From Octopus vulgaris (taxonomy: Eukaryota), in assembly GCA_951406725.2 (NCBI GenBank), contig OX597821.1, positions 75,144,001-75,208,000 on the forward strand: 64,000 nucleotides of DNA. The letters are read 5' to 3'. The translations under genes and the position numbers were made by a program. The notes beneath the pieces are model-generated. The model was not told the DNA's origin. It saw only the letters and a list, made by a program, of their open reading frames with translations, and searched no databases. Positions within the stretch are counted from its first letter, which is position 1; each line of letters begins with the position of its first letter. Shown here piece by piece: positions 4,304-41,462 of this stretch.

Positions 4304-4766
4304 AAGTTGATCTCGGCGGAAATTCAACTCAGAACGTAACGGCAGACGAAATACCTATTTCTTTACTACCCATAAAGAGCTAAACACAGAGAGGACAAAC
4401 AAAGACATACAAACGGATTAAGTCGATTATATCGACCCCAGTGCGTAACTGGTACGTATTTAATCGACCCCGAAAGGATGAGAGGCAAAGTCGACCTCAG
4501 CGGAATTTGAACTCAGAACGTAACGGCAGACGAAATACCTATTTCTTTACTACCCACAAGGGGCTAAACAGAGAGAAAAAACAAGGACAAACGGATTAAG
4601 TAGATTACATCGAGCCCAGTGCGTAACTGGTACTTAATTTATCGACTCTGAAAGGATGAAAGGCAAAGTCGACCTCGGCGGAATTTGAACTCAGAACGTA
4701 ACGGCAGACGAAATACCGCTAAGCATTTCGCCCGGCGTCCTAACGATTCTGCCAGCTCGCCACCTT
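4304..4766 (-). mobile_element. SINE family A concatemer (head plus about 2.3 core units)
   Basis: tRNA-like head GGTGGCGAGCTGGCAGAATCGTTAG...GAGTTCAAATTCC, core GCCTTTCATCCTTTC.G.GTCGATAAATTAAGTACCAG, ~180-bp repeated units. Confidence 0.9.
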
Positions 4767-20583: not shown

Positions 20584-21595
20584 AGGCGTAGCTGTGTGGT
20601 AAGGAGCTTGCTTCCCAACCACATGGTTCTAAGTTCAGTTCTACTGCGTGGCACCTTGGGCAAGTGTCTTTTGCTATAGCCTCGAGACGACGAAAGCCTT
20701 GTGAGTGGATTTGGTGGAGAGAAAAGTGAACGAAGCCGGTGTATGTATATATATATAGATATATATGTGTGTTTATGTGTGTGTGTGTGTATTTGTGTAT
20801 TGTGTCGGTATTTCTTATTTCTTTACTACCCACAAGGGGCTAAATATAGAGGGGACAAACAAGGACAGACAGAGGGATTAATTCGATTACATCGACCCCA
20901 GTGCGTAACTGGTATTTCACTTATCGACCCCGAAAGAATGAAAGGCAAAATCGACCTCAGTGGAATTTGAACTCAGAACGTATCTGCAGACGAAATACCC
21001 ATTTCTATTTCTTTACAACCCACAAGGGGCTAAACACAGAGGGGACAAACAAGGACATACAAACGGATTAAGTCAATTATATTGAACCCAGTGCGTAACT
21101 GGTACTTATTTAATCGATCCCGAAAGGATGAATGGCAAAGTCGACCTCGGCGGAATTTGAACTCAGAACGTAGCGGCAGACGAAATACCTATTTCTTTAC
21201 TACCCACAAGGGCCTAAACAGAGGGGACAAACAAGGATACACAAACGGATCGAGTCGATTACATCGACTCCATTGCGTAACTGATACTTATTTAATCGAC
21301 CCCGAAAAGATGAAATGAAAGTCGACCTCGGCGGAATTTGAACTTAGAACGTAGCGGCAGACGAAATAACGCTGAGCATTTCGTCCGGCGTGCTAAAGAT
21401 TGTGCCAGCTCGCCGCCTTACTGTGTGTGTATTTGTGCGATCTGTCTGTATTTGTTACCCCACCATTGCTTGACTTCTGATGTTGGTGTGTTTACGTACC
21501 GTAACACTAAAGGTTCGACAAGCGAGACCGATACGATAAGTGTTAGGATTACAAAGAAAAAAAAGAAGACCAAGGGTCAATTTCTTCGACTAAAA
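20584..21595 (+). mobile_element. SINE B split by a nested SINE A concatemer
   Basis: 5' half 20584-20740; 3' half (GGTGTGTTTACGT...GAGACCGATACGATAAGT) resumes after 21420. Confidence 0.75.
20805..21419 (-). mobile_element. SINE A trimer
   Basis: Head at 21419 followed by three core/tail-1 units. Confidence 0.9.
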
Positions 21596-39733: not shown

Positions 39734-39986
39734 ATATATATATATACACGGGTCTAGACGTATAAATCCTATCCATAAACGGCACAGTGGAAATTTTAAC
39801 ACATTTCAAAAATGCTCCACCTTAGATTCTTTAAATAAATATATGTCTACACATATTTATGTGTACATACACAGGTACATACGTAAAAAGTTAAGGTGCA
39901 TGCTCAAACACACACACACACATACACACACTCACACACACACATACCTATGTATGTGTGTGTTTGTTTATATACATATATATATG

Positions 39987-40043
<57 letters not shown>

Positions 40044-40070
40044 TTACATATACATATATACATATATTAA

Positions 40071-40594
40071 TTTAATTTTGGGGCATTAATCGATATGCGG
40101 GTATTCTATTTCAGATAATACAAAAATAACCTAATATGTATATCTGTCAATAAAGTCATGGTATCAGTTTGCACATCACGAAATAATGCTTAAAGGATAT
40201 ATACAAAATTATCAGCAGGATGTATAATATACTTCATTAATTATATCCTACTTTAGTAAATACTTATATTTATTAAATATGAAGGAACTACACGTGTTTC
40301 AGTATGGGATGAATACAATATATATACATATACACAACTGTATACCTATATATATATGCATATATAAATACATATACTAATTGATATTTATAATGTATAT
40401 TTTATATATTTTAATTCTTAATATTACAAAGTATAATTTTAATTTTTAATTTTTAATTCTTAATTTTTAATCTTTAATGCTTAATTATATTACATACATT
40501 TAAAGGGATGTAAAATCAGATATATTATATTTTGAAATAGAACCTGAAGATTGTTGGAATAATTGTAAATCTGACGATTGCATATATGTATTTA

Positions 40595-40668
<74 letters not shown>

Positions 40669-40946
40669 TGTACCGTTGTGTATATGTATATATATATTGT
40701 AATCTTCCAATACTGAAACACTTGTAGTTCCTTCATTTTTAATAAATATAAGTATTAACTAAAGCAGGATATAATTAATGAATTATATTATACACCCTGC
40801 TGGTAATTTTGGTTATATCTTTTAATTATTATATCGTGATGTGCAAACTGATACCATGAGTTTACTGTCAGATATACTCATTACGTTATTTTGTATTATC
40901 TGAAACAGAATACCCTCACATCGATTGATTCCCCAAAACTGAATTG
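40071..40946. repeat. Fold-back inverted repeat with ~280-bp diverged arms (40071-40351 / 40660-40946)
   Basis: e.g. CATGGTATCAGTTTGCACATCACGA vs TCGTGATGTGCAAACTGATACCATG; the arms are collinear throughout. Confidence 0.9.
40540..40730 (+). ncRNA. Type I hammerhead with a microsatellite-expanded stem II
   Basis: GAAC-CTGAAGA-T-TGTTGGA...(TA)n...TCCAATA-CT-GAAAC-ACTT-GTA^-GTTC. The mirror arm has the palindromic form GAAAC-ACGT-GTA. Confidence 0.55.
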
Positions 40947-41140
40947 ATATTGACTTTTATCAGATACTTTGTATATTCATAGATAAATATATAAAAATAT
41001 ACGATAAATAAGACCCCAAAGTACGATATGTAAATGCATATAACGCTGAAGAGATGCACCTGATTCATTTGGAAATTTGTTTTTCCAAATTATTTATATT
41101 AAATATATGTATATATACATATATATACATACATACATAT

Positions 41141-41277
<137 letters not shown>

Positions 41278-41342
41278 GTCCCGGGTTGATTCGGGGTTAA
41301 CCACAGTAAGTAAGGTACTCAATACATAGCAGAGTAAAATTA

Positions 41343-41456
41343 ATTTATTATATAGAAGGAGCTTCTACAGGACTAGTACTGTTTCATTCAAGAGAAATCT
41401 TCCTGAAGATTTCTCTTGAATGAAACAGTACTAGTCCTGTAAACTCCTTCTATATA

Positions 41457-41462
<6 letters not shown>
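41343..41462. repeat. Near-perfect fold-back (60/58-bp arms, 2-nt loop) centred on a hammerhead core
   Basis: 37-bp perfect inner arms. The right arm reads CTGAAGA-TTTCTCTTGAAT-GAAAC-AGTACTA-GTC-CTGTA. Confidence 0.9.

What the first reader, a model, noticed from the sequence alone, without database searches (positions are those of the whole stretch)
40540..40730. Hammerhead whose stem II contains a (TA)n microsatellite
The two core halves are ~165 nt apart. They can be joined by TGTTGGA/TCCAATA, GATTGCA/TGTAATC and a self-complementary (UA)n hairpin; stem I is GAAC/GTTC, extended by TGAA/TTCA. Standard descriptors with short loops would miss it. Inference: repeat length could tune folding or cleavage, or the element tolerates or produces its own target repeat.
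Basis: partly seen in the sequence, partly recalled or inferred. Interest (0 to 1): 0.75.

Follow-up and report, generated by a model that had tools for sequence, protein, structure and literature searches.

The report
Long-armed hammerhead in Penelope retrotransposon end
This is a damaged copy of the tail of a jumping gene, carrying a predicted self-cutting RNA (hammerhead) whose second arm is several times longer than in its published relatives; the long TA repeat likely grew after insertion, but long folded arms recur in many sister families in this genome and likely do a job of their own.

Summary
The motif is present as described. It lies in the pseudo-LTR of a Penelope-like retrotransposon with Hydra-clade protein motifs. 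Both halves are linked in 67 of 88 distinct sites. The (TA)33 is this copy's own expansion: 36 of 67 linked copies have at most 7 TA units, and predicted folding does not track TA length. This copy has lost one G of helix II and the helix III palindrome, so it probably cuts poorly or not at all.

The larger point is the arm. Published Hydra-clade hammerheads have 3-10 nt loops; this family has about 105 nt between the core halves, and long arms are common here (378 exact-core sites with 39-130 nt gaps, 2 for the control pattern). Five sister families keep a bulged three-helix arm with compensatory changes. Helix III palindromes dominate (391 and 667 sites against 17), which points to dimer cleavage. 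Cleavage is not shown; RNA reads were too sparse. The scan had already noted long-stem-II hammerheads elsewhere in this genome. Verdict: new variant of a known kind; tuning by the repeat is unsupported.

The parts
40070..40377 (-). Inverted, 5'-truncated copy of the same element end. It starts inside the TA-rich arm, keeps the 3' half of the hammerhead with an intact helix III palindrome (40290-40297), lacks CUGANGA and ends about 220 nt past the cut site
   Evidence: (exact hit at window 40285-40304, minus)
40368..41098 (+). Forward, 5'-truncated element end (3' UTR / pseudo-LTR), from an internal TA seed to the long 3' end about 370 nt past the cut site; no ORF in this copy
   Evidence: blastn to endonuclease-linked paralogues; end mapping
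40533..40543 (+). Stem I 5' strand (GAAC 40540-43) and predicted distal extension (TGAA 40533-36)
   Evidence: stem I pair changes across families
40544..40551 (+). Core CUGAAGA plus U (U of the U-U at the base of helix II)
   Evidence: same core layout in most Hydra-clade hammerheads of PMC8557442 File S2
40552..40558 (+). Helix IIa 5' strand; this copy lacks one G found in most paralogues
40559..40705 (+). Long helix II arm: 5' bulge region, inner helix (two possible registers), TA/TG-rich hairpin(s); about 90 nt in modal copies, 147 nt here
40601..40666 (+). (TA)33, a copy-specific expansion of a (TA)4-5 seed
40706..40714 (+). Helix IIa 3' strand, C (its G partner is missing here) and U before GAAA
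40715..40726 (+). GAAA, minimal helix III (family: 8-nt palindrome; here one G>T change breaks it) and GUA triplet; predicted cut 40726/40727
40727..40735 (+). Stem I 3' strand GTTC and extension TTCA
39969..40067 (.). Left (TA)n-type flank (likely target site)
41099..41274 (.). Right (TA)n-type flank (likely target site)

Best explanation
This is a decayed copy of the pseudo-LTR of a likely Hydra-clade Penelope-like retrotransposon, carrying a type I minimal hammerhead that is predicted to cut only as a dimer and whose helix II ends in a long predicted hairpin arm; the (TA)33 likely expanded after insertion and likely tunes nothing. Shown: both halves travel together; the motif lies about 700 nt after a C-terminal GIY-YIG-like region and, in two longer copies, the sequence behind it leads into the ORF, with the start codon about 420 nt past the cut site; this copy is an inverted plus forward pair inside (TA)n. 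Inferred mechanism: a tandem transcript (pLTR-ORF-pLTR) holds two hammerheads; their 8-nt palindromes pair to build helix III, probably with help from the element's protein, and the RNA is cut after GUA. The cut does not set the 3' end of insertions, which end about 160-220 or 360-390 nt downstream. The core tolerates any arm that closes helix II. Sister families keep a bulged three-helix arm, most likely a structural or protein-docking element. In this family the arm tip drifted to alternating TA/TG, which pairs with itself at any length, slips and attracts insertions once the copy is dead. The window copy lacks one helix II G and the palindrome and is probably inactive or weak.
For: Linkage: 67 of 88 distinct sites; of 20 loci picked by the endonuclease alone, 17 show the left half and 12 of those score the right half, 2 more by eye. 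Protein motifs CxCx5C, CxxC before E, CxH after N, no CCHH, RMKWK and DKT match the Hydra diagnostics. The CTGANGAT...TGAA core is the usual Hydra form. Pattern counts 13 + 378 (ACGT loop; controls 1 and 2), 667 (AGCT; control 0), 17 (non-palindromic ACCT; control 2). Named structure on 38 copies of five sister families: 84.4% of cells paired against 38-45% when slid, changes on both sides in all four helices. Dimer duplex -10.3 kcal/mol for the family palindrome, -1.1 for this copy with itself, -4.5 mixed. Core no better kept than flanks among copies, with CpG decay: neutral decay after insertion. 3' ends cluster downstream, as for the Anolis element whose hammerhead is protein-assisted and dispensable for priming in vitro.
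Against: No cleavage shown. RNA reads on a modal copy were few (30, 38, 4) with no pile-up of ends. RNAalifold on the same 38 rows did not recover the fold and paired the core instead; the structure was drawn by me from these sequences, the rows are related, and one alignment register does not fit every family. The covariation comes from sister families, not from this family's own arm, whose inner register is undecided. Pfam gave no significant RT or GIY-YIG hit for 4 of 4 fragments and the protein search scored none of 378 candidates, so the clade call rests on motifs read by eye, without a tree. The unit is about 3.6 kb, longer than the <3 kb typical of Hydra. TA runs of 8 or more are commoner in the arm (31 of 67) than at a (TA)4 seed outside it (2 of 25), so the arm is a real hotspot; that control is crude (several seeds in the arm, and my pattern missed expanded cases such as L008).
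Confidence: 0.75

Rival explanations
1. The arm is tolerated baggage: loop 2 of a dimer-dependent hammerhead makes no tertiary contact, so it grew by slippage and foldback and is kept only because it must close helix II.
For: Arm sequence and length differ freely between families (inner 19 to over 110 nt); a compact 19-nt form thrives in the same genome (30 of the first 100 listed hits); many arms are very AT-rich.
Against: Five families keep similar length (66-71 nt) and a similar bulged three-helix layout with pair changes on both sides in the distal helices.
Confidence: 0.35
2. The hammerhead of this family was already dead in the master element: the long TA-rich arm misfolds it, and the element spread without it.
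For: In modal copies the MFE is an alternative fold in which the core pairs with downstream CUUCA; P(stem I) median 0.24 over 14 copies. Mutating the Anolis ribozyme did not stop insertion in vitro.
Against: Core, both stems and palindrome are intact in the majority base at every position and in a subfamily about 15-20% diverged with different arm length; the active fold costs a median 2 kcal/mol as a monomer, less than the dimer duplex supplies.
Confidence: 0.15
3. One reading: TA repeat length tunes folding or cleavage as a rheostat.
For: TA length varies from 2 to 40 units; subfamilies differ in arm length (75, 91-95, 105 nt); the arm expands more often than an outside seed.
Against: No correlation with predicted fold (14 copies); long tracts are private to single decayed, mostly ORF-less copies; sister families have no microsatellite.
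Confidence: 0.07
4. The two halves come from separate insertions or are a chance match.
For: CUGANGA alone occurs 34 times in the window; 21 of 88 sites show one half only.
Against: 67 of 88 linked; some single halves are one element split by a later insertion (L313, L314, L318); 378 against 2 pattern hits; none of 90 metagenome pattern windows had both stems fully paired.
Confidence: 0.01

Closest known systems
Hydra-clade Penelope-like elements and their hammerheads (Craig et al. 2021, PMC8557442; read: passages, section 11, Hydra sheet of File S1, File S2)
   Same: C-terminal endonuclease with CxCx5C, CxxC, CxH and no CCHH; RWK-like and DKT motifs; (TA)n flanks; hammerhead near the 3' end with ctgaNgat...tgaa core; Hydra-1_cRog has nearly the same stem I and helix III letters.
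   Different: Loop 2 is 3-10 nt in all listed Hydra rows, against an arm of about 90 nt here; the listed Hydra-1_oBim hammerhead has other stems; unit about 3.6 kb. The longest loops 2 in that file are about 30-35 nt, in two spike-moss elements marked as deviating.
Minimal type I hammerheads of metazoan PLEs (Cervera and de la Pena 2014, PMC4209133; parts 1-2 of 4 read). Lunse et al. (dimers) known only through the review PMC6765202 (passages); the paper itself was not held.
   Same: Open stem I of 4 bp, helix II of 7-8 bp, extra U after A9, palindromic minimal helix III, inverted pairs 100-700 bp apart, expected dimer cleavage with low activity.
   Different: U-U instead of a direct G10.1-C11.1 closure, and a long multi-helix arm instead of a short loop 2.
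Poseidon element of Anolis (PAc; Frangieh et al. 2024, PMC11167929; parts 1-2 of 4 read)
   Same: Hammerhead in the pLTR upstream of the insertion ends; two classes of 3' end; no RNA-seq ends seen at the cut site.
   Different: In PAc the ORF starts within stem II and the tail is 30-40 nt; here the ORF starts about 420 nt past the cut and the optional tail is about 150 nt. Protein-assisted cleavage is shown there, untested here.
Natural hammerheads with a U10.1-U11.1 mismatch (Perreault et al. 2011, PMC3088659; axolotl HHR_Amex2 in PMC7229834; passages read)
   Same: U-U at the base of helix II is reported as the best tolerated mispair.
   Different: The passages read describe short or weak stems II, not long arms.
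Metazoan non-LTR retrozymes (PMC7229834 passages; bioRxiv 10.64898/2026.07.22.740005 part 1 of 5)
   Same: Type I hammerheads with weak palindromic helix III, related to pLTRs.
   Different: Retrozymes are short tandem non-coding repeats; this family is joined to an RT-endonuclease ORF and dispersed.

Membership tests
Type I minimal PLE hammerhead | Core CUGANGA, GAAA and UH triplet in order | tested here: met
   both halves intact by a strict pattern in 32 of 67 linked copies, majority base intact at every core position
Type I minimal PLE hammerhead | Stem I pairs across the cut site | tested here: met
   4 bp here; second pair changes on both sides in 19 of 38 sister-family rows
Type I minimal PLE hammerhead | G10.1-C11.1 closes helix II next to G12 | tested here: not met
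   U-U then G-C in the family; this copy also lacks that G. U-U is the common Hydra form
Type I minimal PLE hammerhead | Palindromic minimal helix III | tested here: met
   Met for the family and genome (391 and 667 against 17); broken in the window copy
Type I minimal PLE hammerhead | Short loop 2 | tested here: not met
   105 nt between core halves in modal copies, 162 here
Type I minimal PLE hammerhead | Self-cleavage at the UH site (as a dimer) | not testable with these tools
   RNA reads too sparse to show ends
Hydra-clade PLE | RT followed by C-terminal GIY-YIG endonuclease in one ORF | tested here: met
   Order shown in L313, L314 by tblastn with the family's own fragments; motifs read by eye; Pfam gave no significant hit
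Hydra-clade PLE | CxCx5C linker, no CCHH, CxxC and CxH around E and N | tested here: met
Hydra-clade PLE | RWK and DKT motifs | tested here: met
   RMKWK (RWK-like) and SDKT in L313
Hydra-clade PLE | Insertion into (TA)n; pLTR with inverted truncated copy | tested here: met
Hydra-clade PLE | Length generally under 3 kb | tested here: not met
   about 3.6 kb estimated from L313
Hydra-clade PLE | Placement in an RT phylogeny | not tested
   no reference RT sequences were in hand
Naiad PLE | N-terminal endonuclease, no canonical hammerhead | tested here: not met
   endonuclease is C-terminal
Non-LTR retrozyme | Short non-coding tandem units, each with a hammerhead | tested here: not met
   dispersed, ORF-linked copies; no tandem unit at this locus

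The most novel reading that the evidence does not exclude
Hydra-type Penelope elements in this genome have turned loop 2 of the hammerhead into a conserved 50-110 nt bulged arm that docks the element's telomerase-like RT and licenses cleavage, a ribozyme-plus-protein-handle module present at over a thousand sites and invisible to current descriptors; in this family the arm tip is itself a (TA)n target, so each inserted copy carries a landing pad inside its own ribozyme.
Probability: 0.25. Interest if true: 0.72.

Novelty: new variant of a known kind. Interest (0 to 1): 0.45.

Why it matters
The role of hammerheads in Penelope-like elements is open (PMC8557442, PMC11167929). A set of families with one core, swapped palindromes and arms from 19 to over 100 nt is a natural series for testing dimer cleavage and protein assistance. 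It also means descriptor searches undercount these ribozymes: two exact patterns alone give about 1,050 sites, most with long arms. The microsatellite itself is ordinary decay, and this copy is a poor one to assay.

Tried and rejected
Rfam: no hammerhead at gathering score or at E<=10. Second CTGACGA at 40571 as the true core: rejected, weak stem I and CpG decay in 15 and 7 of 67 copies. RNAalifold consensus failed. Protein search and Pfam gave nothing significant. Metagenome pattern scan: 113 stretches, 90 windows scored, none with both stems fully paired, so no evidence outside this genome and a chance baseline. Sequencing runs: no RNA holder listed. Three raw RNA runs on a modal copy gave 30, 38 and 4 reads, mostly under 95% alike, no end pile-up; the same runs gave 0 reads on a sister-family copy, which is no test. 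Idea that 5' truncations cluster in the arm: dropped; most apparent cases were broken chains at expansions or elements split by later insertions. TA length against copy divergence: no correlation (66 copies, p 0.42), so timing of expansion is not resolved. Lunse et al. not held. Searches for a printed report of long-armed PLE hammerheads found none; the library lacks most subscription journals and Repbase/Dfam, and bioRxiv supplements could not be seen.

Full report
Observation. The region folds better than 200 of 200 shuffles. A hammerhead-compatible fold lies 1.9 kcal/mol above the minimum. Rfam does not detect it.

The family. The window lies in a 2.8-Gb animal genome; that it is octopus-like is my inference from recalled repeats and from other scan notes, not a tool result. 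The right and left halves have 341 and 256 first-look candidates; exact 24- and 20-nt motifs give 74 and 78 sites. From 110 fetched loci I obtained 88 distinct sites: 67 with both halves in order, 12 left only, 9 right only. These loci were picked by likeness to one half, to the endonuclease or to an exact motif, so they favour well-kept copies. Three left-only rows are one duplicated locus interrupted by another element, two show a worn right half by eye, and some single halves are one element split by a later insertion. The spacer inside the inner helix is 52-62 nt in 22 of 67 copies, shorter in 10, 63-200 in 23 and over 200 in 12; here it is 114. The longest TA run is 7 units or fewer in 36 of 67 and 20 or more in 16. 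The source elements therefore carried short (TA)4-5 tracts in a TA/TG-rich arm, and long tracts are private to single copies. Among copies the core is no better kept than its flanks and CpG sites decay, as expected after insertion. The window copy has two lesions: a missing G at the base of helix II and a G>T change in the helix III palindrome, which cuts the predicted self-duplex from -10.3 to -1.1 kcal/mol.

The element. Upstream of longer copies lie a GIY-YIG-like region and RT fragments. L313 holds a near-complete, mutated copy: a pLTR remnant, a start codon about 420 nt past the cut-site position, RT, endonuclease, 3' UTR and hammerhead, about 3.6 kb. The protein shows CxCx5C, CxxC, CxH, no CCHH, RMKWK and DKT, the diagnostics of the Hydra clade in PMC8557442 section 11. 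Pfam and the protein search gave no significant support and I built no tree. In the window an inverted truncated copy (40377 to 40070) abuts a forward truncated copy (40368 to about 41098), both ends in (TA)n, the layout drawn for PLEs in that paper. In 34 chains from 30 loci picked by the right half, 3' ends fall about 160-220 or 360-390 nt past the cut site; none of the 67 linked copies stops at it.

The ribozyme type. File S2 of PMC8557442 shows that most Hydra hammerheads have a U after A9 and a U before GAAA, as here, but loops 2 of 3-10 nt. U-U at that place is a tolerated natural variant. Palindromic minimal helix III and dimer cleavage are the known PLE pattern. In this genome the linked core with an ACGT loop gives 13 hits for 8-38 nt gaps and 378 for 39-130 nt (controls 1 and 2); with AGCT 667 (control 0); with the non-palindromic ACCT, one change from either, 17. 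A site can be counted twice when it has two upstream cores. Of the first 100 AGCT hits listed, 30 are a compact 18-19 nt form and 68 have over 40 nt between the halves (my count).

The arm. Among fetched loci I sorted at least nine sequence families besides this one, with 53-95 nt between the halves; 12 of 79 rows stayed unassigned. Loci of three families sit beside the same kind of endonuclease, and one has an RT fragment 63% identical to this family's. For 38 copies of five families (F2-F6; all full-length rows of those families except one 80-nt, one 34-nt and one 20-nt row) I named a four-helix structure. It pairs 84.4% of cells against 38-45% for slid controls, with both-sided changes in stem I (19 cells at one pair), helix IIa and both distal helices. 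Cautions: I drew the structure from these sequences, they are related, and RNAalifold did not find it unaided. Single-copy folds show about 12-14 bp, a 5' bulge of 4-10 nt, 5-7 bp, a small loop and a capped stem in many but not all rows.

Does TA length matter? In 14 natural copies with intact stems, TA number (4-33) does not correlate with stem I or helix IIa probability or with the cost of the active fold. Alternating TA closes as a hairpin at any length. The arm does expand more often than a (TA)4 seed 170 nt upstream (31 of 67 against 2 of 25 with 8 or more units), and other repeats land in it, so it is a mutational and insertional hotspot. Nothing indicates that this is used.

Mechanism. 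Shown: anatomy, linkage, ORF context, end positions, palindrome bias. Inferred: two hammerheads of a tandem transcript pair through their palindromes and cut after GUA, probably with protein help as in PAc; priming starts downstream, so the cut does not mark insertion ends; the arm is a structural or docking element. In modal monomers the core tends to pair with downstream CUUCA, a predicted off state. Cleavage and expression of intact copies are not shown.

Novelty. Hammerheads in Hydra-clade PLEs are known, including an octopus family with a compact one. I found no printed report of long helix II arms in them (limited library). Earlier notes of this scan mention long-stem-II hammerheads in this and another genome; they are unchecked and I reached my reading before seeing them. 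Verdict: new variant of a known kind, interest 0.45. The microsatellite is ordinary; the long-armed hammerhead series is what deserves the bench test.

Noticed in passing
window 14024-13977, minus strand: A second, compact PLE-type hammerhead: 4-bp stem I, CTGATGA core, 7-bp helix II, palindromic AGCT helix III, A-A instead of U-U at the base of helix II. It resembles the 19-nt family.
   Followed up: partly
window 41275-41460: Element between TA tracts with a near-perfect long inverted repeat (about 41356-41449) whose arms contain CTGAAGAT and TGAAAC; a similar element sits inside the hammerhead arm of L021. Possibly a head-to-head pair of truncated ribozyme-bearing ends.
   Followed up: no
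G000, patterns; L112-L174: At least nine further hammerhead families with the same core and 50-110 nt arms; many occur as inverted pairs 90-700 nt apart (L131/132, L153, L163).
   Followed up: partly
G000:C29:27.5-29.4 Mb (L036, L037, L049-L057): Eleven near-identical copies of one interrupted element, in both orientations at roughly 100-400 kb spacing: a large segmental or tandem duplication.
   Followed up: no
window 40731-40735 against 40545-40549 and 40533-40536: CUUCA after the cut site can pair either with the stem I extension or with the core itself; in modal copies the second, inactive pairing is the predicted minimum.
   Followed up: partly
window 4304-4717 and 20810-21368: Tandem 178- and 190-nt units of a repeat that I recall as an octopus SINE (name from recall only).
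   Followed up: no
L314:405-1815; L320-L321: A second, diverged RT-endonuclease remnant (40-62% identity) directly upstream of a family copy, and repeated endonuclease segments of this family at C1:19.15-19.17 Mb.
   Followed up: no
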